A stretch of DNA of 64,000 bases from IMG/VR virus record IMGVR_UViG_3300027963_000071, positions 2,909-66,908 of that record; one strand, 5' to 3'. The notes beneath the pieces were generated by a model. That model did not search any database. It was not told the origin of the DNA and was given only the letters and a program-made list of their open reading frames with translations. Below are positions 3,606 through 33,251 of the stretch, piece after piece. Within the stretch, counting starts at the first letter, position 1. Every line of letters begins with the position of its first letter. The translations under genes were made by a program, and so were the position numbers. The stretch comes from a virus.

Positions 3606-4128
3606 TCTGAACAATAACATCATCTGGTCTATTTTTATTGTCTCTCATATCAAAAATTTGAACAGACGGATGTAAACTTAGAAACGCTTCTCTAGAAGAA
3701 TCAAGGTCTCGAATATCTTCAATAATATAAATCCCGCCTACATTTAATTTAGGAAATAATAAATTAAATGATTTAATTTGATGTTTAAAGACATGTGATC
3801 CGTCGTCGATAATAACATCAAACCCGTCGAGATTTTTAAATGTATCAGGATCAGTAGCATCGCCCTCAATCATTTGACATCCTGTATTAACATTAGGGAC
3901 TTTAATATCAACGCCTACTATTTCAGCTTGTAGAAAATACTCTTTCCACATCATTAGAGAATGGCCTTGGTTAATGCCAATCTCTAAAACTTTAAGAGCA
4001 GTGGTCCTATATGGTGCAAGAGCTGTGTCATAGTACTCATCAATATAACTATGCACCGTTCCTTTATCTCCACCGGCTACTGGAGATTCGGTACAATACT
4101 TGTTATAAATTTCTTGTAATGTCTTCAT
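3595..4128 (-). CDS. Class I SAM-dependent (sugar O-)methyltransferase
   Basis: DKGTVHSY, VLEIGI, DVIIDDGSH, GGIYIIED. Confidence 0.8.
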   Translation of the reverse strand: MKTLQEIYNKYCTESPVAGGDKGTVHSYIDEYYDTALAPYRTTALKVLEIGINQGHSLMMWKEYFLQAEIVGVDIKVPNVNTGCQMIEGDATDPDTFKNLDGFDVIIDDGSHVFKHQIKSFNLLFPKLNVGGIYIIEDIRDLDSSREAFLSLHPSVQIFDMRDNKNRPDDVIVQIKK

Positions 4129-5129
4129 TACATTAACCTATCTTTCCACGTGGCTGGGGTTTTTTCATTAATAATTTCTAGCTTATATCTATAATTAAAC
4201 GGATGAGGACCGCGATTACGAATATAATTAGCAGTTTCGTGAATACTCTGCTCTAGTGTTGCTTTTGTTTCATATCCTAAGACTGTTCTTGCTTTATCAG
4301 CAGTACAACTGGCATGTTTAACTTCACGTGGACGATCTGGCATGTGAATCGCTTCGCCTTCGAACCCACACTCTTTCATAACAAGTGCTGCCATGTCCTT
4401 AACAGTAATAGTGCCTTCGTCTGGCCCAATATTAATTGTTTGATATACTATAGTAGGATCCAATGCTAATTTTTCTAAACACTGAATACAGTCTCCCACG
4501 TAACTAAAACACCGAGTTTGCAATCCGTCGCCATAAATTATCGGTGGGTTGCCTTGTAATACACGATTAATCATAATGCTCATTACATTACGGAACGGGT
4601 CATCGTAACACTGACGAGGTCCGACAATATTATGTGGAATAGCAATGTTCCATTCCATTCCGTGTGTTTCACAAAGCATTTTTAAAACATCTTCTGATGC
4701 TACTTTAGCAACTGCATATGGATCTTCAGGAGCCGGTGGATAGTCTTCATGGAACGGAGCTACTTGATTTCCATAACGTGCCATACTTGAACAAAATACA
4801 AATCGTTTAACTTTGTTTTGTATTGCAGCACTGATTGTAGACACACTTGCTTCAAAAATATTACGTGTAATAAAACTTGGACTGAATACACTTAGCCCTT
4901 CATGCGCTGTGGCTGCGGCATGAATAACGATATCGGTACCAGCCATTACGGCTGATAGTTTTTCATTATCGCAACAGTCCATTTCATAAAAATGCACACC
5001 TGCTGGAACATTGTCTCGATACCCACCAATTAAATTATCATTACCCGATACTTCGTGTCCTAACTCGATCATTCTATCTGCAAGATGGCTTCCTAAAAAC
5101 CCTGCAACACCTGTAATAAAAATTTTCAT
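4128..5129 (-). CDS. NAD-dependent nucleotide-sugar epimerase/dehydratase
   Basis: GVAGFLGS Rossmann motif, YAVAK catalytic YxxxK, GDGLQTRCFSYV. Confidence 0.9.
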   Translation of the reverse strand: MKIFITGVAGFLGSHLADRMIELGHEVSGNDNLIGGYRDNVPAGVHFYEMDCCDNEKLSAVMAGTDIVIHAAATAHEGLSVFSPSFITRNIFEASVSTISAAIQNKVKRFVFCSSMARYGNQVAPFHEDYPPAPEDPYAVAKVASEDVLKMLCETHGMEWNIAIPHNIVGPRQCYDDPFRNVMSIMINRVLQGNPPIIYGDGLQTRCFSYVGDCIQCLEKLALDPTIVYQTINIGPDEGTITVKDMAALVMKECGFEGEAIHMPDRPREVKHASCTADKARTVLGYETKATLEQSIHETANYIRNRGPHPFNYRYKLEIINEKTPATWKDRLM

Positions 5130-16534: not shown

Positions 16535-16631
16535 TTTTATTCTGTACCCTTACAGAAAATACAAAGAAAATAAAGAATGGAAAAAGCGTTTAGCAGAACT
16601 CCGCAAACGCGATCCGTTCATTTACAAATGA
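16518..16631 (+). CDS. 37-aa basic peptide not in the ORF track (…KRLAELRKRDPFIYK)
   Basis: GGAG RBS at 16507, TTG start, TGA overlapping the carbamoyltransferase ATG. Confidence 0.55.
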   Translation: MKKILDFILYPYRKYKENKEWKKRLAELRKRDPFIYK

Positions 16632-17596
16632 TTACCTGGGGGATAAACGCTCTTAATCACGATGCTAGTATTGCCGTTGTGATTGACGGACAGTTAAAAT
16701 TTTGGGAACGTAGCAGCAAATATTCTGGTATTCCGGGTGATGATAAAATACATTCTGGATTGTTCAGTGATGCAATTAATGCCAGTGGTTATCGTGGGCC
16801 GGACAATATTGTTTGGTACGAGCGTCCTTGGTTAAAGAAACTTAGACAATTCCGTGCCGGGCAGTATCATTGGGCATTTGATATGGATGAACTGCCTAGT
16901 CGATATTTAAAATCAATTGCATTAGGTTATCCGAGAATATCGTATATGCCTCATCATCTAAGTCATGCAGCCGCAGGATTTTTAACATCTCCATTTGATG
17001 AAGCCGCAGTTGTAGTATTAGATGCTATGGGCGAATGGGAGTCTGCAAGCATATGGCACGGTAAAGGCACAGACTTAAAAAAAGTGTGGAGCCGTAGTTA
17101 TCCTACTAGTTTAGGATTGTTCTATTCAGCATTCACAGATTTAATAGGGTTGAAACCGTTGGGCGAGGAGCATATTCTTCAACAGTACAGTAGCAAAGGG
17201 AATTACCACCGCTATCGTATTGAAGTTGAAAGTTATTGGAATTCAAATTGGACATTATCTGAAAATTTACACAAAGGTGTACGCTCGTGGAAGGATCCTA
17301 TTGTCACTGATCAAGATAGATATGACATTGCGGCCGCAGTACAATACGTATTTGAAAACCAAGCAATGCAGGTAATGAACACTGCTAAACATCTAACAGG
17401 TAGTGAGAATTTAGTTTATATGGGGGGATGTGCTATGAATAGCAAATTCAATCAAGAATTAGACTCTAGTTGGAATGGCATTTGGAGTTTGCCTATACCC
17501 GGTGATGCCAGCAGTACTATTGGTGCAGCATTATACTATCAAAAGAAAAGAATTAAGTGGCGTGGGCCTCTTGCAAATTATGTCAAGATCAAGTAA
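16628..17596 (+). CDS. Carbamoyltransferase N-terminal domain (NodU/CmcH/TobZ Kae1-like)
   Basis: WGINALNHDAS, HHLSHAAAGF, VLDAMGE, SLGLFYS, GGCAMN, PGDASSTIGAA; no C-terminal domain. Confidence 0.85.
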   Translation: MITWGINALNHDASIAVVIDGQLKFWERSSKYSGIPGDDKIHSGLFSDAINASGYRGPDNIVWYERPWLKKLRQFRAGQYHWAFDMDELPSRYLKSIALGYPRISYMPHHLSHAAAGFLTSPFDEAAVVVLDAMGEWESASIWHGKGTDLKKVWSRSYPTSLGLFYSAFTDLIGLKPLGEEHILQQYSSKGNYHRYRIEVESYWNSNWTLSENLHKGVRSWKDPIVTDQDRYDIAAAVQYVFENQAMQVMNTAKHLTGSENLVYMGGCAMNSKFNQELDSSWNGIWSLPIPGDASSTIGAALYYQKKRIKWRGPLANYVKIK

Positions 17597-17605
17597 AATA
17601 TAAGT

Positions 17606-18220
17606 ATGTTCACTGAAAAGAAATATGTTTGCGGAAATCAATGGCTCATAGATACAGAGTATCCTGCCTATGAAGAATTGTTACCATTTTTAAATATTGA
17701 AGACAAGTACGAATACAGTCGAGAAACCACTGCATTTGGTGCAAGGCAATTTCCATTATGGACCGATCAAGATTTGGCAATGGTTTACAAATCTAAAGAA
17801 CATCGTGATTTTACTCCACTGGATGGTTGGGATAAAGTGCTTGAAAAAACAGTAGCATGGACACAGGCCAAAGTATTACAGTATAGATTTTTTCATAAAC
17901 TACAACCTGCTATTTCTTGGTATATAACCTACGAAGAAGGCGGATGGCAAGGTATGCATACACATGATGAAAATTCAATTACACAAATCATTTACCTCGA
18001 TCCAACACCACACGTTACTCCGGACTCGCCAGCAAAGGCTGCTGGGTATGGTGCTATGTATGCTATGATGGCAAGTAAAGACAAACACAAATATGTAACA
18101 GTAAACGGATTTCCGGGTAGATGTATAATAATGCCAGGCAATATATATCACGGGGTATATCCGGTAAAATCCGTTCCAAGAAGGACAGTAGTCATAGACT
18201 ACATATATAAAAGACAATGA
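17606..18220 (+). CDS. 2OG-Fe(II) oxygenase-like protein
   Basis: MHTHD ... YHGVYP ... RRTVVID. Confidence 0.6.
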   Translation: MFTEKKYVCGNQWLIDTEYPAYEELLPFLNIEDKYEYSRETTAFGARQFPLWTDQDLAMVYKSKEHRDFTPLDGWDKVLEKTVAWTQAKVLQYRFFHKLQPAISWYITYEEGGWQGMHTHDENSITQIIYLDPTPHVTPDSPAKAAGYGAMYAMMASKDKHKYVTVNGFPGRCIIMPGNIYHGVYPVKSVPRRTVVIDYIYKRQ

Positions 18221-20258: not shown

Positions 20259-20966
20259 GTGAAGTTACGTGAGTTTACAGAAACACCCCTAGTCACAGTC
20301 AATCGTAGATTAAATCCTAAGATTTGGAATGGTGATTCACTAGATCCAGAAGTAAGACAAAAACTCAAAGAAATTGCCGATGCATTTCAAGAGTTCATCG
20401 GTGTTGATTTAAACATCGTTGATTACACAATCACAGGGTCTAATGCCAACTATACTTGGACCAGCCATTCGGATCTAGATCTTCACATTATTGTTGCAGG
20501 ACTACCAAGTGACGAAGCTCGCGAACTGTTCAATGCCAAAAAGGCACTCTGGGGTGAGCAACATAACATCACAGTAAAAGGCCTTCCAGTTGAGTGTTAT
20601 GTACAAGGCGAAGATGAACCGCATCATTCAACAGGTGTGTATTCTATAGTAGATGATGCTTGGGTTTCAGAACCTAAAAAAATCAAACCAAAGATTAATG
20701 ATTCAGCAGTCAATGCTAAAAAAGAATCTGCCATTCACGATATTGAAACAGCATTTTTATCTAACGATCTCAATAAGTTGCGCTCAGTAAAAGAGAAAAT
20801 AACCAACATGAGAAAAGCTGGATTAGAACGTGCAGGTGAATGGAGTGTTGAGAATCTTGTATTCAAAATTCTGCGCAATCTAGGATTGATAGATAAGATT
20901 ACAGAAAAGATCCGTGAACTAGAAGATCAAGAACTTAGCCTAGAGCAGGCTAATGCTATCGATTAA
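20259..20966 (+). CDS. Pol-beta-superfamily nucleotidyltransferase
   Basis: TGSNANY...SDLDLH (GS-x-DxD), VECY. Confidence 0.7.
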   Translation: MKLREFTETPLVTVNRRLNPKIWNGDSLDPEVRQKLKEIADAFQEFIGVDLNIVDYTITGSNANYTWTSHSDLDLHIIVAGLPSDEARELFNAKKALWGEQHNITVKGLPVECYVQGEDEPHHSTGVYSIVDDAWVSEPKKIKPKINDSAVNAKKESAIHDIETAFLSNDLNKLRSVKEKITNMRKAGLERAGEWSVENLVFKILRNLGLIDKITEKIRELEDQELSLEQANAID

Positions 20967-21544
20967 TGTTTTTTATTGACTAGATAAGTTGAATTAAAAC
21001 TTACAGTAATTCTAGAGTCAGTTTTATTATTCACAGTGTCGTGTTCTAACCAACTGGGAAATATCACCATCATTCCTGTTACACAAGGAAATTCAAACCA
21101 CATTTGATTTAGCGGGCTGTCTCTTTCGATGTGTTCAAACATACGTAGATGATTCAACGGATTGTACAATCTCAACGGAACACTACCGGGATCTGCGTGT
21201 AGATATAATGCTCCTGAAACCACACTACATTCATGACGGTGTCTTTCAACTCGATGCCCTTGTCCTATCTTATTAAACCAAGAATTTGAAATCGCCACTG
21301 GCTCTAATCCTAGTTCACCTGTATATTGATCAACAGCACCCTGTATTCTACTGCGAATGCCTTTTAATAGCATGTTGTCTAGCAATCGTCCGTGTCCGTG
21401 AACATAACTGCTTTCTGCACCGCTGACTAGTCCATGTGGTGCTGTCTTTTGTCGTTCACATATATCTCGCAACAATTGAAATTCTGGATCTTGTGAAAAG
21501 TCATGTTGAAAAACCAGTGTGGGAAATAATGAAATTCTGTTCAT
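20963..21544 (-). CDS. 2OG-Fe(II) oxygenase (TIGR02466-like)
   Basis: SWFN, HRHE, VSGALY, FPSWLEH, RITVSFN. Confidence 0.8.
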   Translation of the reverse strand: MNRISLFPTLVFQHDFSQDPEFQLLRDICERQKTAPHGLVSGAESSYVHGHGRLLDNMLLKGIRSRIQGAVDQYTGELGLEPVAISNSWFNKIGQGHRVERHRHECSVVSGALYLHADPGSVPLRLYNPLNHLRMFEHIERDSPLNQMWFEFPCVTGMMVIFPSWLEHDTVNNKTDSRITVSFNSTYLVNKKH

Positions 21545-28927: not shown

Positions 28928-29238
28928 GCTAGTTCTCCTAGTTCGATTGTGGGTTCTGGATAGCGGATCTCTCCGTCGTATTCCAGCTGGCTGCGTTCAA
29001 ACCAGCTGAGGTAATCGTCTGCTTCCACGTGGAAACCGATGATGGCAGTTGTGAAGTATTCATCATCGCGTTCGATCTGGCTGCGTACCATGTCTACGAT
29101 CTCTGAGGCATCTGCCCCGGCAGGAACATTTGTGATTTTATACGAGGATCCACCTTTGGCCTTCCAACGATAGGTACCGTCGAAACCTGTGTGGGCCGCG
29201 TAGTTCTCGTGATCCTGTGTGTCGATTACTATGATCAT
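28924..29238 (-). CDS. Hypothetical early protein
   Basis: TQDHENYAAH...WKAKGGS; GGAGCGA RBS. Confidence 0.65.
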   Translation of the reverse strand: MIIVIDTQDHENYAAHTGFDGTYRWKAKGGSSYKITNVPAGADASEIVDMVRSQIERDDEYFTTAIIGFHVEADDYLSWFERSQLEYDGEIRYPEPTIELGELA

Positions 29239-29301
29239 TGTCGCTCCTGTTATCTAACTATGTGCATAGTATAACAGGCATTAGCCAATTTGTCAACCAA
29301 T

Positions 29302-29691
29302 TTATGCGTTGTTTTTCTGCAACAGTTCAGCACCGTTGTTCTCGGATATCACCAGGCGAACATCTCGCATTCTGCTGGCGATAGATTTGACTAGATCATC
29401 CTGGTTAGCACCTTGCCCTAGGAACTCTTCAGTGTCTGTGCGGTAGGCAAACAGAACTCCCTGATGGCGCTCAACACGGATCTCAAGCACTGCCTTGGGC
29501 GGCTCTGCAGTGATGTCTGCGGGATTGATGCCATGGCGGATCATCACGTTCTTCAGTTGATCGGGCGTGATGTCCAATTCCTTCATCAGTTCGCTGAAGC
29601 TGATACGCATCCAGATGCTGACCAGCTTGCCTCCCACAAAGACTCCAAGGATGAAGATCAGGAGACCTTCTAAGAATGATTGTATGTCCAT
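29302..29691 (-). CDS. Membrane-anchored hypothetical protein
   Basis: N-terminal TM helix; TAAATA upstream. Confidence 0.6.
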   Translation of the reverse strand: MDIQSFLEGLLIFILGVFVGGKLVSIWMRISFSELMKELDITPDQLKNVMIRHGINPADITAEPPKAVLEIRVERHQGVLFAYRTDTEEFLGQGANQDDLVKSIASRMRDVRLVISENNGAELLQKNNA

Positions 29692-29710
29692 GTTGTTATT
29701 TAATTAATTC

Positions 29711-29968
29711 TTATTCGTATTCGTAAAATGTTACCGCTGGATCAAGTTGCTTCAACTCACGTGCGGCTGTGGTAAGTTGGCGATAGCGTTGCTTTACGGC
29801 ACTACGGCTCAGCTCACCATCACAGGTAAGGTTCTCTGGGCTTAGTTCGTTGTCGATCATCTCTGCGATACGCTGACGATCCTGTGCTGTGTCTAGGCTC
29901 ATTGCTGGGGAACCAAAGATGGCATTCCAGCGGTTCTTCTGATCTAGATAGGTGTTGAGGTTTTTCAT
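29711..29968 (-). CDS. Hypothetical early protein
   Basis: LSPENLTCDGE; promoter and GGAGCGA RBS. Confidence 0.65.
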   Translation of the reverse strand: MKNLNTYLDQKNRWNAIFGSPAMSLDTAQDRQRIAEMIDNELSPENLTCDGELSRSAVKQRYRQLTTAARELKQLDPAVTFYEYE

Positions 29969-30073
29969 TGTCGCTCCTAACTGTTAATATGTATATATTA
30001 TAGCATCTTTTGGCGAAGTTGTCAACCGCTGGACAGCGGGGCCAGTGTGGCATTTGCGCCACACCTTGTGCGT

Positions 30074-30451
30074 TTACAACTCCATGCTCGCCATGCCGTC
30101 CTCTTGCATGCCCTGCTCTGTAAACATAACCTCTGTACCTAACAGTGTGCTAATCGCATCTGCAAAGCCCGTGTCTGTATACAGTCTCCAGCTGTCCTCA
30201 TACTCTGTGTCGCCGTTAACATTGTAGCACACTGTAATGTGTATGCTACTGTCGCCGTCCAATTCGTCCCACCATTGCTCGTGTATGTGTATGCTTGTAA
30301 CTGTAACTGCCTCTAGCTCGCAGTCCCATATACTGTCACCTGCAAGTTGCACCTCTACGTTGCAGTCGTATGTTGTGCTAATGCTGTCTTCGCTAGTGTC
30401 TGTACCTGCTAGTGTCAGTTTGTCGCTAACATTAAATTGTGTTGCTTGCAT
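30074..30451 (-). CDS. Acidic proline-free early protein
   Basis: 125 aa, D/E-rich, GGAGAG RBS. Confidence 0.65.
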   Translation of the reverse strand: MQATQFNVSDKLTLAGTDTSEDSISTTYDCNVEVQLAGDSIWDCELEAVTVTSIHIHEQWWDELDGDSSIHITVCYNVNGDTEYEDSWRLYTDTGFADAISTLLGTEVMFTEQGMQEDGMASMEL

Positions 30452-30608
30452 ATTGCTCTCCTACTAATTCCCAACCGTTTAACTCCGTAGCACACACGTC
30501 GTCTGCGTTAACTTCTATCTCGTCCGCCGCAACGTCTGCCGCCTCTTGTGTATCTGCATCTACGTGCAAATAAAATGTTTGTGTTTGCTTGTATACAAAT
30601 GTTGCCAT
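30432..30608 (-). CDS. 58-aa acidic protein (MATFVYKQTQTF...), not in the ORF track
   Basis: TAGGAG RBS; no Pro. Confidence 0.6.
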   Translation of the reverse strand: MATFVYKQTQTFYLHVDADTQEAADVAADEIEVNADDVCATELNGWELVGEQYASNTI

Positions 30609-30617
30609 GTTGTGCTC

Positions 30618-30773
30618 CTAATCTACGTAATATTCTACAGTTTGTGTTAGTGTGCTAAGTGCACCTTCTACTTCCGCAAAACAACTTAGCTGTGCAAGTT
30701 GCTCGCCGTCTAGTGTTGCCTCTAACAGCATTTCCTCTACTTCCGCTAGCTTTGCAAGTATTGCGTCTCTCAT
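30618..30773 (-). CDS. 51-aa acidic helical protein (MRDAILAKLAEVEEM...), not in the ORF track
   Basis: AAGGGA RBS; no Pro. Confidence 0.6.
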   Translation of the reverse strand: MRDAILAKLAEVEEMLLEATLDGEQLAQLSCFAEVEGALSTLTQTVEYYVD

Positions 30774-30783
30774 TGTGTGTCCC

Positions 30784-30945
30784 TTATGCTACTGCTTTGT
30801 AAACTGTTACTGTAGTGTCTGCAAAATCTGCATGTGCATTGTAAAACGCTTGTGCTCGTGCAATAGCGTCTTCTGCGCTAGTTGCTTTTACTACGCACAA
30901 ATCTTCTATGTTGTCGTAGCGCAAATAAACTGTGTATTTCTGCAT
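30784..30945 (-). CDS. 53-aa protein (MQKYTVYLRYDN...)
   Basis: AAAGGA RBS, own promoter; no Pro. Confidence 0.6.
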   Translation of the reverse strand: MQKYTVYLRYDNIEDLCVVKATSAEDAIARAQAFYNAHADFADTTVTVYKAVA

Positions 30946-31019
30946 TGTGTTTCCTTTACTGCTTAAAAACGTATTATAGCACACTTGCATCCAAAATGCA
31001 AGTGTTGTGCTAATAACCC

Positions 31020-31286
31020 TTACGCTAAGTCTGCTTTTACACGTACATACTGTCCGCCAAATGTGTATGTTGCAAAGTTGCTTGCAACACCTGTGCGTGT
31101 TACTTCGTTTGCACAAGTAGCACGTAAGTAGTTTGCTAACGTGTCCGCCGCCTGTGCATCTCTAAAACAAAATACTACTGTACGTCTTTTGCTTGCTTTG
31201 TTTTTAGTTGTCCTGTCCGTATAACTTGCGCTTACGCTAGTTACGTTACGTGCTAATGCACGTATTTGCTTTGTGTTAAACAACAT
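31020..31286 (-). CDS. 88-aa basic protein (MLFNTKQIRA...)
   Basis: AAGGAG RBS, own promoter; no Pro. Confidence 0.6.
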   Translation of the reverse strand: MLFNTKQIRALARNVTSVSASYTDRTTKNKASKRRTVVFCFRDAQAADTLANYLRATCANEVTRTGVASNFATYTFGGQYVRVKADLA

Positions 31287-31366
31287 ACTGCTCCTTTTAC
31301 TGCTTAAAAAACAATTATAGCACACAATTGCATTTTGGGCAAATTATGTGCTAATACTGTACTAAA

Positions 31367-31618
31367 TTACTCTACTATTACAATGTTGTTTGTGCGCAAC
31401 ATCTTTTGTGCTGTTATAATTGTGCGTTGCACCTCTGCATCTATGTTATCTGCAAGCAAATCTCCGCTTACATAGTTACATTGCTTTTGTACAGGAAAAC
31501 GCATTTTATAGTTAGTACCTACTAACTCTTTGTGTACGTTAAATGCAATTTGCATTTTGTAGGAATTAAGTTTTTTATTGTAAACTAGTTTTGCGTATGC
31601 TATGCACTGTGTTAACAT
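31367..31618 (-). CDS. Hypothetical early protein
   Basis: AAAGGA RBS; promoter at 31648-31676. Confidence 0.6.
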   Translation of the reverse strand: MLTQCIAYAKLVYNKKLNSYKMQIAFNVHKELVGTNYKMRFPVQKQCNYVSGDLLADNIDAEVQRTIITAQKMLRTNNIVIVE

Positions 31619-31678
31619 TGTGTGTCCTTTTGTGTGTGTAAGCATGTATTATAACGCACTTTGTCCAAAATGTCAACC

Positions 31679-31708
31679 AAAAAAAAAGACCCTACGTAAT
31701 GTAGGGCC
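31679..31708 (-). terminator. Intrinsic terminator, overlapping an ACCC-N11-GGG operator-like site
   Basis: GGCCCTAC-ATTAC-GTAGGGTC followed by a T run. Confidence 0.65.
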
Positions 31709-31738
31709 TTTCAAAGCCTAGATTCGGGAGCGAACCGT

Positions 31739-32044
31739 TTAGGCTGTTACAGCAGCCTTCACTGGAGCTGCTTGTTTAACCACGGGCGCAGCCTCGGGGT
31801 TTTTCTTGGCTACGTAAGCAATTGCGTCTGCAACAGCTTTGCGGCCTTTGGCGTAATCAACGTCAACAAGGTGTTGAGCAATCTCGCCCTTAGTCATTTC
31901 ACGTGGAAGATCAATGAGATCCACGTCCTGGTGACCGTTCTTGGCCAGGATCTTGATGCGCATTGCATCGTTGGCGAAACGGATCTTAGTTTTACCGCTA
32001 AGTGTACTAACGCCTGCTACGCTAAATTTCTTTTCAGTTGCCAT
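31739..32044 (-). CDS. Basic hypothetical protein
   Basis: FSVAGVS...KIRFAND; GAGG RBS. Confidence 0.65.
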   Translation of the reverse strand: MATEKKFSVAGVSTLSGKTKIRFANDAMRIKILAKNGHQDVDLIDLPREMTKGEIAQHLVDVDYAKGRKAVADAIAYVAKKNPEAAPVVKQAAPVKAAVTA

Positions 32045-32132
32045 TTGTGTTACCTCTTTCTGTGTGTGTTTAAGTTAGCTGCACTAGCAGCATGTTATTA
32101 TTGTAGCATCAAACTACCAAATCGTCAACCAT

Positions 32133-32330
32133 TCATTTGTCCAAATTCATTGGTATCACTTGAATGGTTACCGACTCCTTCTCGTCCAGGGCAACGATGA
32201 ACTCGTCGTCATAGACCAGATCCTGCATACTCAAGTCAATCAGTTCCTCGACTCGAGTCAAATTGGGTGTACCCTCTCCCGCACAGGTAACCCTAAACGT
32301 GTATACATATTCTCTAGTCATTGTTAACAT
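32133..32330 (-). CDS. Hypothetical protein
   Basis: GAGG RBS, coupled. Confidence 0.5.
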   Translation of the reverse strand: MLTMTREYVYTFRVTCAGEGTPNLTRVEELIDLSMQDLVYDDEFIVALDEKESVTIQVIPMNLDK

Positions 32331-32625
32331 ACCTCTTGGTAAACCGATCCTTTGCCAACAGCAGTGTGGTCATTGCTACATCACGGGCATAGATCGAACC
32401 ATACTCATCCCAACCCCAAATCGGCACTTCACGACCTAGAGCCACAAACGCAGTTGCTTCTGATTCTCTACAGCCCGGACCGTAGTTAGCCCACATCCAG
32501 TTGCGATACTCTAAGAAGTTCATTTGCCAGTCTGTGGCCGTCTTGAACCCTTCGGGATCCGTTCTGTGGGTCCAATGGCCCCAGCCATTGAACCTACGAT
32601 CCAGCTTCTTTAGAGTCTGCCTCAT
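32314..32625 (-). CDS. Trp-rich hypothetical protein
   Basis: ATGA coupling. Confidence 0.55.
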   Translation of the reverse strand: MRQTLKKLDRRFNGWGHWTHRTDPEGFKTATDWQMNFLEYRNWMWANYGPGCRESEATAFVALGREVPIWGWDEYGSIYARDVAMTTLLLAKDRFTKRYVNND

Positions 32626-33251
32626 TCTGAAACCAAACCCAACTTCTTGTTCTGCTCAACGCCATCTTTGATCCACTCAGTGAGCTCTTCTTCTTGCTCA
32701 GCCTCGTATTCAGCCATGCATTCTGAGATACCAAAAGCCTCGTCAAGTTCTACGGGCAAGTCCTGTTCTACCTGCGATGAATTCATACCCTCTAGGTTGT
32801 AGTATTCATCATTGCCTTCTTCCCAAACACCGCAGTAGGCCATGCCGGGTTCGTAATACATTGCGCCTACAGTAAAGCCCATTGCAGTCAACTTCTCGTA
32901 GGCCGCGATCGGAGGGCTCCATGCTGAGTCGAAGTAGGTGTGTAGCATCTTGCCATCCGGATGCACATCAGTTGTGCTATCAGCACCCACATCCCACTTG
33001 GTGCCCCACTCGTTGACCTGATAGTCATACCAGTTGCCATAACCGTATTTCTCTACATTCTCAGCAGTCTTACGCTCGAGTTCTGCCTGCTCAACAGGAT
33101 CACCAACGGATCCCGCGACTATCTGCAGATCCTTCGGCACTGGAATAAACTCACTCAGGAACTCTCCACGCTCAAGGGCCTCAGCGGCTCGCTTGATCAT
33201 TGCAGGGTCTTCGTGTTGCAGTGTTAAGTTGTTGTTGCACCAATTTGGCAT
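32622..33251 (-). CDS. YubB/DUF1281-like ferredoxin-fold protein
   Basis: MPNWCNNNL, WGTKWD, FDSAWSPP, YYEPG. Confidence 0.7.
   Translation of the reverse strand: MPNWCNNNLTLQHEDPAMIKRAAEALERGEFLSEFIPVPKDLQIVAGSVGDPVEQAELERKTAENVEKYGYGNWYDYQVNEWGTKWDVGADSTTDVHPDGKMLHTYFDSAWSPPIAAYEKLTAMGFTVGAMYYEPGMAYCGVWEEGNDEYYNLEGMNSSQVEQDLPVELDEAFGISECMAEYEAEQEEELTEWIKDGVEQNKKLGLVSE

What the first reader, a model, noticed from the sequence alone, without database searches (positions are those of the whole stretch)
30050..31687. A 1.3-kb island in which one strand has no GA or GG, forcing five proteins to be proline-free
Seen: from 30050 to 31336 every G on the + strand is followed by C or T. Out to 31687 there are only three exceptions (31337-39 in a -35 box, 31494 at the single Pro codon, 31562). 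Equivalently, the coding (-) strand has no TC or CC. The flanking DNA has ordinary GA/GG, and the + strand inside the island keeps many TC/CC, so the constraint is strand-specific and sharply bounded. It covers intergenic DNA too. The five ORFs (375 aa in total) have no Pro, and only AGY Ser codons are possible. Known: some phages modify bases by context (preQ0 at GA/GGC in phage CAjan; carbamoylated or glycosylated hmC), and some deaminases and DNA ADP-ribosyltransferases are context-specific. Inference: these may be the earliest-expressed genes, kept free of a bulky GR or YC modification so that host RNA polymerase can read them. Alternatively this strand is exposed to a TC/CC-specific host enzyme during entry. 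The phage's carbamoyltransferase, oxygenases and glycosyltransferases are candidate modifiers. Restriction avoidance alone fits poorly, because GTAC, AGCT, TGCA, GCGC and ACGT remain.
Basis: partly seen in the sequence, partly recalled or inferred. Interest (0 to 1): 0.95.

Follow-up and report, generated by a model that had tools for sequence, protein, structure and literature searches.

The report
Phage early genes banning pyrimidine-C
A small block of first-expressed genes in an uncultured giant lake phage is written so that C never follows T or C on the message strand; selection keeps this in many related phages, so something in the infected cell must read that two-letter step, most likely the terminator Rho.

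Summary
Window 30050-31337 has no GA or GG on the + strand, a run of 1288 nt. The next longest such run in the 66.9-kb contig is 170 nt. The genes lie on the - strand, so the mRNA and non-template strand lack UC/CC (YC).

This is not chance or codon bias. Synonymous resampling of the five proteins expects 56 +/- 7 YC; 0 are observed. C-ending codons are favoured after A/G but absent after T/C.

The block runs from a terminator plus a consensus sigma-70 promoter to a hairpin after the last gene. Every such island in relatives holds one acidic protein family with the motif [ST]E[QW]GMQ. Of 42 gene clusters, 22 have 0 YC and 11 have 2-6. The other 9 have normal YC and form one clade; in 8 of them the domain sits in a long protein.

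A 98%-complete 353-kb relative has exactly one island. A 100%-complete relative without the family has none. PA5oct, T4, T5 and T7 have none.

Best reading (0.36): a time-zero cassette whose message evades a YC reader, with the Rho primary binding site as the leading named candidate. Rivals are an unknown YC-specific RNA or DNA enzyme, and a modification-free template strand.

This scan noted the same phenomenon on at least nine other windows. I found no paper describing it.

The parts
31684..31712 (-). Intrinsic terminator of the upstream gene (12-bp stem followed by a T run). It holds the last YC before the near-island.
   Evidence: terminator scan; sequence
31648..31676 (-). Promoter P1, TTGACA-17-TATAAT (12 of 12). 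It is the start of the YC-poor zone.
31367..31618 (-). ORF F, 83 aa. It has two TCC sites: one is the single Pro codon, conserved as F-P in relatives, and the other is a Ser TCC codon.
31314..31342 (-). Promoter P2, TTGCCC-17-TATAAT with a TG extension. The CCC of its -35 box is the only YC in the non-coding DNA.
31020..31286 (-). ORF E, 88 aa, basic, 0 YC. Look-alikes by eye occur in islands of L017, L083 and L093.
30973..31001 (-). Promoter P3, TTGCAT-17-TATAAT with a TG extension. I read it from the sequence; the scan's threshold missed it.
   Evidence: sequence; not listed
30784..30945 (-). ORF D, 53 aa, 0 YC.
30618..30773 (-). ORF C, 51 aa, acidic, 0 YC. Homologues occur in the islands of L009 and L017.
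30432..30608 (-). ORF B, 58 aa, acidic, 0 YC.
30074..30451 (-). ORF A, 125 aa, acidic, 0 YC. It belongs to the [ST]E[QW]GMQ family found in every island. The AF2 model has pLDDT 88, with a beta-sheet plus a helix and no known fold.
30046..30063 (-). 18-nt palindrome/hairpin just after the ORF A stop codon. The first CC of the message strand lies in its 3' arm, which marks the end of the island.
30050..31337 (-). The strict YC-free run on the message strand (no GA/GG on the + strand), 1288 nt.

Best explanation
The island is a cassette of immediately expressed small genes, probably counter-defence genes. Purifying selection keeps its sense strand free of the step 5'-pyrimidine-C-3', so that its transcripts cannot be engaged by a host factor that reads YC on single-stranded RNA. 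The only known factor with exactly this specificity is the primary binding site of termination factor Rho. Each subunit of the Rho hexamer holds a UC or CC dinucleotide, so a message without YC offers no loading site and is transcribed to its end even when ribosomes lag.

Shown here: the ban, its strand, its bounds at a promoter and a hairpin, its maintenance by selection over deep divergence, and its tie to one gene cassette.

Inferred: That protein may act against the very factor its message evades.
For: (1) The specificity matches. A review states that the Rho PBS clefts bind 5'-YC (PMC12360218, passages). Dierksheide et al. 2026 state that E. coli Rho recognises up to six CC or UC dinucleotides. 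They also say Rho avoidance shapes coding-strand composition and is a barrier to foreign elements such as bacteriophages (PMC13323073: abstract, sections 7 and 8, passages).

(2) The ban is on the dinucleotide, not on C. In the island, NAC is 61 of 87 NAY codons and NGC is 33 of 55 NGY codons, higher than the 0.40/0.39 of the reference ORFs. NTC is 0 of 40 and NCC 1 of 13. A codon ending in T or C is followed by a C-starting codon in 1 of 195 cases, against 58 of 263 after A or G. The same pattern holds in 14 of 14 other island loci.

(3) It is selection rather than protein content. Synonymous resampling gives 55.7 +/- 6.6 YC for the five ORFs (minimum 32 in 5000 trials), against 0 observed.

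(4) The footprint follows the transcription unit. The island starts after a terminator at a 12/12 promoter and ends at a hairpin after the last stop codon. I found 52 non-redundant YC-free runs of at least 400 nt in relatives. Of these, 40 have a near-consensus promoter within -120 to +200 of the run start, and in 22 the -35 box starts within -20 to +31 of it.

(5) The pattern is graded, as expected for a cumulative multi-site reader. Of 42 clusters of the family gene, 22 have 0 YC, 11 have 2-6 and 9 have 10-21. The zero and low states are interspersed on the tree. A conserved Pro keeps its CC.

(6) The phage's genes in general carry a purine bias. The median is 54.8% purine, against about 60% in the island. 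The paper ties such bias to Rho exposure and quotes 54% for B. subtilis genes.
Against: The host is unknown, so the presence of Rho is not shown. The nearest bacterial homologues of one auxiliary gene are mixed: Pelagibacteraceae 62%, Betaproteobacteria, Bacteroidia and others.

Only one island of about 1-1.6 kb exists per genome: 1 in the 353-kb G001 and 1 in G003. The other early genes, behind equally good promoters, have normal YC. A generic need to escape Rho would not single out one cassette.

T4, T5 and T7 infect the host in which Rho's YC preference is best established. They have no such run (maxima 98-146 nt). PA5oct and the complete relative G002 have none either.

Known Rho avoidance appears as C-poor, purine-rich composition, whereas here C is kept and even favoured after purines.

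The footprint is equally that of a template strand without GA/GG, so sequence alone cannot tell RNA-level from template-level reading.
Confidence: 0.36

Rival explanations
1. An unidentified host immune enzyme reads YC on single-stranded RNA; it could be an endoribonuclease or an RNA-modifying toxin. The cassette encodes its antidote, and the antidote's message carries no target site, so it can still be made after the enzyme is switched on. This is the logic of ACA-less messages under MazF.
For: The ban is tied to the cassette. The island goes with the [ST]E[QW]GMQ family in G001 and G003 and is absent, with the family, from the complete genome G002. It is also absent from PA5oct, T4, T5 and T7, which lack the family. 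Runs of 900-1570 nt have no site at all, which suits a reader for which one site matters. In the one clade where the domain sits in 281-862-aa proteins, YC is normal. One of these proteins carries a virion-structural domain and another lies next to a terminase gene. There the protein could arrive ready-made and its message would need no protection. The island genes use C-ending codons, as highly expressed genes do, wherever the ban allows.
Against: I know of no RNase or RNA-modifying defence enzyme with UC/CC specificity, and my searches found none. The 11 of 42 clusters with 2-6 YC are harder to explain if one site is fatal. The normal-YC forms are a single clade, so they count as only one independent contrast.
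Confidence: 0.3
2. This is a template-strand reading. The virion DNA carries a modified G in GA/GG, or a host enzyme damages G in that context. The template strand of the time-critical cassette is kept free of such sites, because lesions or bulky bases block or slow RNA polymerase only on the template strand.
For: The purged step on the template strand is exactly G followed by a purine. Phage DpdA enzymes are reported to use GA and GGC (CAjan: PMC7544227, title and abstract in a search listing) or strictly GA (iggy: PMC10484667, abstract in a listing). PA5oct is inferred to carry a modified G in GA and/or GG (PMC12191111, passages). The close relative G001 encodes GTP cyclohydrolase I (3e-41), PTPS (1.5e-14), a weak QueC-like match and 9 radical-SAM matches. 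In G001 and G002, 6-mer palindromes that contain GR are not avoided (mean O/E 0.98 and 0.93), while those without GR are (0.82 and 0.81). T5 and T7 show the opposite. This is a weak hint that GR sites may be protected. The reading also explains why only one strand matters.
Against: PA5oct has no GR-free or YC-free island in 286,783 nt. Its anti-END gene gp52 has normal YC, 45 in 558 nt. G002, with FolE and PTPS, has no island. No TGT/DpdA-family match was found in G000-G003 (0 of 4); this is uninformative, because PA5oct also gives none. All consensus -35 boxes (TTGACA) carry a GA, and about 20 kb of neighbouring early genes have normal template GR, so host polymerase evidently copes with such sites. 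GGATCC, GGTACC and GGGCCC are avoided despite containing GR. I know of no evidence that 7-deazaguanine derivatives impede RNA polymerase.
Confidence: 0.14
3. This is a mutational footprint. A YC-specific single-strand DNA cytosine deaminase acts on the displaced non-template strand of very heavily transcribed genes and has converted every YC to YT.
For: TT is over-represented on the message strand (AA on + is 1.54 of expectation). The footprint is transcription-linked and on the non-template strand.
Against: All ORFs are intact and conserved over deep divergence. CT is not enriched (0.72). The conserved Pro codon survives. Neighbouring genes behind equally strong promoters are untouched. A literature search found no anti-phage ssDNA cytosine deaminase.
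Confidence: 0.05
4. This is translation or RNA-folding optimisation. Without UC/CC nothing can pair with GA/GG, so Shine-Dalgarno sequences stay open; and proline-free proteins are made faster.
For: Island RNA is slightly less structured: mean MFE is -32.8 kcal/mol per 150 nt, against -37.6 and -39.5 in the flanks.
Against: The difference is small and goes with lower G+C (43.7% against 48%). The ban also covers intergenic DNA and codon junctions. It overrides the otherwise preferred C-ending Phe and Ile codons (0 of 40). No such optimisation is known to reach zero.
Confidence: 0.04

Closest known systems
Rho avoidance by coding-strand composition (purine bias, Dierksheide et al., Nat Microbiol 2026, PMC13323073) and the 5'-YC specificity of the Rho primary binding site
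   Same: Sense-strand composition is shaped so that nascent RNA is a poor Rho substrate. The avoided step UC/CC is the stated Rho ligand. The constraint reaches into codon choice. The paper names bacteriophages as elements facing this barrier.
   Different: The known case is a genome-wide, mild bias (54% purine) with fewer C. Here a single 1-1.6-kb cassette per genome of about 350 kb has an absolute ban on one dinucleotide class. C is kept and enriched after purines, and proline is lost from the proteins. Rho dependence is untested here.
Cleavage-site-free messages that escape sequence-specific mRNA interferases
   Same: Complete absence of a short RNA word from a message that must stay functional while a sequence-specific factor is active.
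   Different: No YC-specific RNase is known. The ACA-less case I recall is largely an engineered system. Here the word is a dinucleotide class, and the ban is natural and conserved.
Motif-specific 7-deazaguanine DNA modification in phages (CAjan GA/GGC, iggy GA; PA5oct inferred GA and/or GG)
   Same: The same dinucleotide class, G followed by a purine, seen from the template strand. Relatives carry preQ0-pathway-like genes.
   Different: No local avoidance of the motif is reported for those phages in what I read. PA5oct, which I scanned whole, has none. No DpdA was found here. The modification state of these phages is unknown.
Restriction-site avoidance in phage genomes
   Same: Purging of short words under selection by a sequence-reading host factor. 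These genomes do show it elsewhere: AGCGCT occurs 1 time against 23 expected in G001, and TGCA has O/E 0.09 in G002.
   Different: Restriction avoidance is symmetric and genome-wide. This ban is on one strand, local, and leaves palindromes such as TGCA and ACGT in place.
Injected anti-defence proteins such as T4 IPI* (from my own knowledge)
   Same: The long marine forms of the family domain look like virion-carried proteins. That would deliver the same domain at time zero without gene expression.
   Different: This is only inferred. It rests on one virion-structural domain match (1 of 7 proteins) and one terminase neighbour. No function is known for the domain.

Membership tests
Rho-avoiding coding sequence | Depletion of the Rho ligand (UC/CC) and no C-over-G excess on the sense strand | tested here: met
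   0 YC in 1288 nt; (C-G)/length is -0.068
Rho-avoiding coding sequence | Sense-strand purine excess | tested here: met
   About 60% purine in the island, against a median of 54.8% in 39 ORFs of the contig
Rho-avoiding coding sequence | Expression becomes Rho-dependent when the pyrimidine signal is restored | not testable with these tools
   Needs a reporter assay with and without Rho
Rho-avoiding coding sequence | The host encodes Rho | not testable with these tools
   Host unknown; homologues of one auxiliary gene are taxonomically mixed
DpdA-type 7-deazaguanine DNA modification | A TGT-family DNA transglycosylase (DpdA) is encoded | tested here: inconclusive
   PF01702 matched 0 of 4 records. 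The phage PA5oct, inferred to be modified, also gives no match, so absence is uninformative.
DpdA-type 7-deazaguanine DNA modification | preQ0 synthesis genes (FolE, QueD, QueE, QueC) | tested here: inconclusive
   None in the window's own contig, which is 16% complete. In G001: FolE 3e-41, PTPS 1.5e-14, QueC-like 26 bits, 9 radical-SAM matches.
DpdA-type 7-deazaguanine DNA modification | Modified G present in virion DNA at GA/GG | not testable with these tools
   Needs LC-MS or nanopore signal analysis
Site-free message escaping a sequence-specific RNase | The target word is absent from the whole message | tested here: met
   Transcripts from P2 and P3 to the end hairpin have 0 YC
Site-free message escaping a sequence-specific RNase | A cognate RNase with that specificity exists in the host | not testable with these tools
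   Host unknown; no such enzyme found in searches
Restriction-site avoidance | The avoided word is avoided on both strands | tested here: not met
   The + strand keeps 81 TC and 58 CC while having 0 GA/GG
DarT2-type ssDNA ADP-ribosylation target avoidance (TNTC) | The motif is removed from the strand whose damage would block expression (the template) | tested here: not met
   The template (+) strand keeps normal TC; only the non-template strand is purged. The motif was read in PMC11543638 passages.
First-entering DNA (T5 FST, T7 leading end) | Position at a physical genome end | not testable with these tools
   Contigs are 'linear, no end repeats' by IMG/VR class. T5 and T7 themselves show no YC-free run.

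The most novel reading that the evidence does not exclude
The cassette is the antidote to a still undiscovered bacterial immune enzyme. That enzyme acts either at pyrimidine-C on RNA or at G-purine on the transcribed DNA strand. The conserved acidic [ST]E[QW]GMQ protein is its inhibitor. Phages deliver the inhibitor either ready-made inside the virion (the long marine forms, which have normal YC) or from a message rewritten to carry no target site at all. The island would then be a sequence fingerprint from which the specificity of an unknown defence system can be read directly.
Probability: 0.3. Interest if true: 0.95.

Novelty: new variant of a known kind. Interest (0 to 1): 0.85.

Why it matters
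A complete, strand-specific ban on a class of dinucleotides, strong enough to remove proline from whole proteins and kept over deep divergence, is a very clear selective signal. I did not find it described in print.

It would show that phages can defeat termination by sequence alone, and it would give a clean natural substrate for testing how strictly Rho needs YC in vivo.

Either way the experiment is simple and available now: restore YC synonymously and see what breaks. The rule could also be used to design transcripts that resist premature termination.

Tried and rejected
Protein function. Pfam and PHROGs gave no significant family for the six island proteins and four neighbours, nor for ten island proteins of relatives. 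tblastn of ORF A, of the L083 family member and of a marine family member against 50,697 phage records gave no match. The ESM Atlas gave no usable hit. Foldseek against the PDB gave no match at E <= 0.001. VIA-align wide gave a best Z of 5.4, within the noise the tool describes. BFVD gave only unnamed or uncharacterised viral proteins.

Complex prediction of E. coli Rho with the ORF A alignment returned 'no answer' (score 0.00, controls not run). This says nothing either way.

Sequencing runs. Four metatranscriptome runs, held as Logan contigs, were laid on 29000-33000. Contigs cover parts of the flanking genes and of 31010-31679. Bins 30340-30473 and 30608-31009 had no cover. Contigs cannot show expression level, starts or ends, so I draw no conclusion about transcription of the island.

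Host inference from the nearest bacterial homologues of the epimerase gene gave a mixed list, so I name no host.

The TGT/DpdA search was negative but uninformative, because the PA5oct control was also negative.

Palindrome over- and under-representation gave only a weak and internally inconsistent hint about GR protection.

RNA folding energy differs little from the flanks.

I considered and set aside several other ideas:
- CmdT-like GA-specific RNA ADP-ribosylation, because the messages keep GA.
- DarT2 (TNTC), because the wrong strand is purged.
- Primase-site avoidance, tRNA or codon supply, and anti-Shine-Dalgarno avoidance, because none explains junction and intergenic purging.
- Assembly artefact, because the island recurs in many independent contigs.

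Supplementary files of the papers were not seen. The restriction tables of PMC12191111 might refine the PA5oct motif.
Full report
OBSERVATION

The + strand of window 30050-31337 has no GA and no GG. In 1287 nt about 126 are expected from the rest of the window, and the same strand keeps 81 TC and 58 CC. The run is 1288 nt long. The next longest GA/GG-free run in the window, and in the whole 66,908-nt contig, is 170 nt. No other pair of dinucleotides sharing a first or a second base gives a run longer than 150 nt.

One is the CCC of a -35 box. The others are the single Pro codon and a Ser TCC codon of ORF F.

All genes here lie on the - strand. Stated biologically, the message (non-template) strand has no UC/CC (YC) and the template strand has no G followed by a purine.

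ANATOMY

On the - strand the upstream gene ends in a 12-bp-stem terminator with a T run (31712-31684). It is followed at once by a 12/12 promoter, TTGACA-17-TATAAT (31676-31648). Six small ORFs follow: F 83 aa, E 88, D 53, C 51, B 58 and A 125. There are two further promoters. One is TTGCCC-17-TATAAT at 31342-31314. The other is TTGCAT-17-TATAAT at 31001-30973, which I read from the sequence.

The island ends in the 3' arm of an 18-nt palindrome, about 10 nt after the ORF A stop codon. The next gene has another 12/12 promoter (30025-29997) and ordinary YC. Promoter strength is therefore not what sets the island apart.

None of the six proteins matches Pfam or PHROGs.

NOT CHANCE, NOT CODON BIAS, NOT C-AVOIDANCE

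I resampled synonymous codons for the five YC-free proteins with the contig's own codon usage. This gives 55.7 +/- 6.6 YC, with a minimum of 32 in 5000 trials, against 0 observed. The proteins are shaped too: 1 Pro in 458 aa against 4.3% in 55 reference ORFs, and Ser is AGY in 21 of 22 codons.

C itself is not avoided. After a purine at the second codon position, C-ending codons are more frequent than in the rest of the contig (61/87 and 33/55, against 0.40 and 0.39). After a pyrimidine they vanish (0/40 and 1/13). C-starting codons follow codons ending in T or C in 1 of 195 cases, against 58 of 263 after A or G. The same two-sided pattern holds in 14 of 14 other island loci.

The island genes thus look like highly expressed genes that give up their preferred Phe and Ile codons to obey the ban.

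RELATIVES

ORF A and a neighbouring 209-aa protein retrieved 99 IMG/VR loci. Long YC-free runs on the coding strand recur in them, up to 1568 nt. Allowing rare isolated YC, they reach 2112 nt. They occur in contigs whose proteins are only 20-30% identical to those of the window.

The gene content of the islands varies, but each of the 15 islands I examined contains a member of one acidic family. It has the C-terminal motif ..Y(T/W)(D/E)..F.. [ST]E[QW]GMQ. ORF A is the window's member. The family has 1145 hits at E <= 0.001, none of them named. Its AF2 model is confident (pLDDT 88) but matches no solved fold.

A pattern search for the motif gave 80 more loci. I analysed 73 of them, leaving out 7 evident duplicates. 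They form 42 clusters at 90% nucleotide identity or more:
- 22 clusters have 0 YC in the gene.
- 11 clusters have 2-6 YC (0.5-1.6 per 100 nt).
- 9 clusters have 10-21 YC (4.1-6.0 per 100 nt), which is normal.

All 33 zero or low genes are stand-alone ORFs of 105-143 aa. In 8 of the 9 normal ones the domain is embedded in an acidic protein of 281-862 aa. One of these long proteins lies beside a terminase gene. In 1 of the 7 I scanned, the N-terminus matches a PHROG of virion structural proteins (3e-29).

On a maximum-likelihood tree the 9 normal rows form one group (support 92/94), so this contrast is a single evolutionary event. The zero and low states are interspersed, with 7-8 changes across long branches. 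So the ban is old and actively maintained. It is not a property of the protein fold.

ONE ISLAND PER GENOME, TIED TO THE CASSETTE

The window's contig is only about 16% of a genome. I scanned several whole genomes:
- G001 is a 353,123-nt relative, 98% complete, with ORF A 90% identical. It has exactly one island, 922 nt at 315153-316074 on the - strand. No other comparable run exists for any dinucleotide pair.
- G003 (242,646 nt) has one island of 1568 nt.
- G002 (363,943 nt, 100% complete) lacks the family and has no island; its longest runs are 113-128 nt.
- PA5oct (286,783 nt) has none.
- T7, T4 and T5 have none; their maxima of 98-146 nt are close to the roughly 82-98 nt expected.

WHERE THE ISLANDS START

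I collected 52 non-redundant YC-free runs of at least 400 nt that are not cut by a locus end. Of these, 40 have a near-consensus sigma-70 promoter within -120 to +200 of the run start. In 22 of them the -35 box begins between -20 and +31 of it. In 9 the last YC lies inside the promoter itself. Several islands run on into a following gene with normal YC and no terminator between.

The footprint is therefore that of a transcription unit from its start. It is not that of a DNA segment with its own borders.

WHAT READS IT

Three kinds of reader fit a sense-strand YC or template-strand GR footprint.

(a) A reader of RNA. The Rho primary binding site is the only factor I know with exactly this specificity. 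A review describes 5'-YC-binding PBS clefts (PMC12360218). Dierksheide et al. state that E. coli Rho recognises up to six CC or UC dinucleotides, that Rho avoidance drives purine bias and codon choice, and that this is a barrier for bacteriophages (PMC13323073). The phage's genes in general carry such a bias: a median of 54-58% purine in G000-G003. The graded series of 0, 2-6 and normal YC counts suits a cumulative, multi-site reader.

Against Rho: the ban is confined to one cassette per genome, it is absent from coliphages and from cassette-less relatives, and C is retained.

(b) An unknown YC-specific RNase or RNA-modifying defence enzyme, with the cassette as its antidote. This explains the tie to the cassette. 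It also explains why forms that may be carried in the virion need no ban. But no such enzyme is known, and searches found none.

(c) A template-strand reading: a modified or attacked G in GA/GG. Template-strand lesions block RNA polymerase and non-template ones do not, which would explain the strand asymmetry.

It gains from several points. Phage DpdA motifs are GA/GGC and GA (listing). PA5oct is inferred to have a modified G in GA and/or GG. G001 has preQ0-pathway-like genes. The palindrome statistics give a weak hint.

It loses from others. PA5oct has no island, and its anti-END gene has normal YC. G002 has FolE and PTPS but no island. About 20 kb of neighbouring early genes, and every TTGACA box, carry GR. 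The missing DpdA is uninformative, because PA5oct gives no TGT match either.

I put (a) with Rho at 0.36, (b) at 0.30 and (c) at 0.14. A deaminase footprint gets 0.05 and translation or folding optimisation 0.04; the rest is unassigned. The broader statement is that selection purges a site read on the transcribed unit of a time-zero cassette. I hold that at about 0.85.

NOVELTY

The principle is known: sequence avoidance of a sequence-reading host factor, including Rho avoidance by composition. An absolute, one-strand ban on a dinucleotide class, confined to one cassette and costing the proteins their proline, is not described in the papers I found. I read passages of PMC12360218 and the abstract, sections 7 and 8 and passages of PMC13323073.

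This scan has noted the same phenomenon on at least nine other windows of other genomes. Those follow-ups reached similar candidate lists. I took from them the leads to PMC13323073 and to the PA5oct preprint, and I checked both myself.

New here, as far as those notes show, are:
- the two-sided codon test showing that C is favoured after purines;
- the whole-genome counts (one island with the family, none without it);
- the negative scans of PA5oct, T4, T5 and T7;
- the PA5oct control that makes the missing DpdA uninformative;
- the finding that YC is normal where the domain sits in long proteins that may be virion-borne, in a single clade.

Noticed in passing
L163:4725-5639, L165:2624-5212, L148:4398-5774, L172:2744-4021, L167:4083-5357, L160:4230-5330: In one clade the [ST]E[QW]GMQ domain sits inside very acidic 281-862-aa proteins with normal YC. 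Their ends repeat a short motif of the type L-K-x-L-A-G-(V/I). One lies next to a terminase gene, and one has a virion-structural N-terminal domain. They may be capsid-packaged, injected proteins.
   Followed up: partly
window 30602-31018 (run X20): One RNA-library contig joins 30602 to 31018 with 13 other letters between, skipping ORFs C and D. This is probably a relative with a shorter cassette, which would show modular gene content inside the island.
   Followed up: no
G001, G002, G003 whole records: Some palindromes are avoided very strongly: AGCGCT 1 against 23 expected (G001) and 0 against 29 (G002), GTGCAC 3 against 46 (G001), TGCA O/E 0.09 (G002), CATG absent and GCTAGC 0 against 22 (G003). 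These are classical restriction-site avoidance signatures that differ between relatives.
   Followed up: partly
G003:C1 about 198,000-220,000 and elsewhere: G003 has 23 radical-SAM matches at E <= 0.01 in 243 kb, many of them clustered. G002 has 12 and G001 has 9. This is an unusual load of radical-SAM enzymes for a phage.
   Followed up: no
window 31648-31676, 31314-31342, 30973-31001; first promoters of L009, L027, L050: The island promoters share a spacer pattern: TTTTGG shortly after the -35 box and TGCG(C/T) or TGTGC just before TATAAT. This could be an operator or an extended -10 element specific to this cassette.
   Followed up: no
window 4128-5129 (-): The NAD-dependent epimerase/dehydratase gene is 60-62% identical to genes in two Pelagibacteraceae single-cell genomes and 58-59% identical to Polynucleobacter and Betaproteobacteria MAGs. 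This is not enough to name a host.
   Followed up: partly
window 16577-18220 and 20963-21544: A protein matching only the N-terminal carbamoyltransferase domain (PF02543, 2.9e-32) and two 2OG-Fe(II) oxygenases lie within or next to the primase-helicase gene block. This agrees with another first-stage note; their substrate is unknown.
   Followed up: partly
PA5oct 267253-267563 (L274/L275 region): A 311-nt stretch without GA/GG overlaps a 217-nt stretch without TC/CC. It is poor in both classes, so it is probably low-complexity AT-rich DNA and not an island of the kind described here.
   Followed up: no
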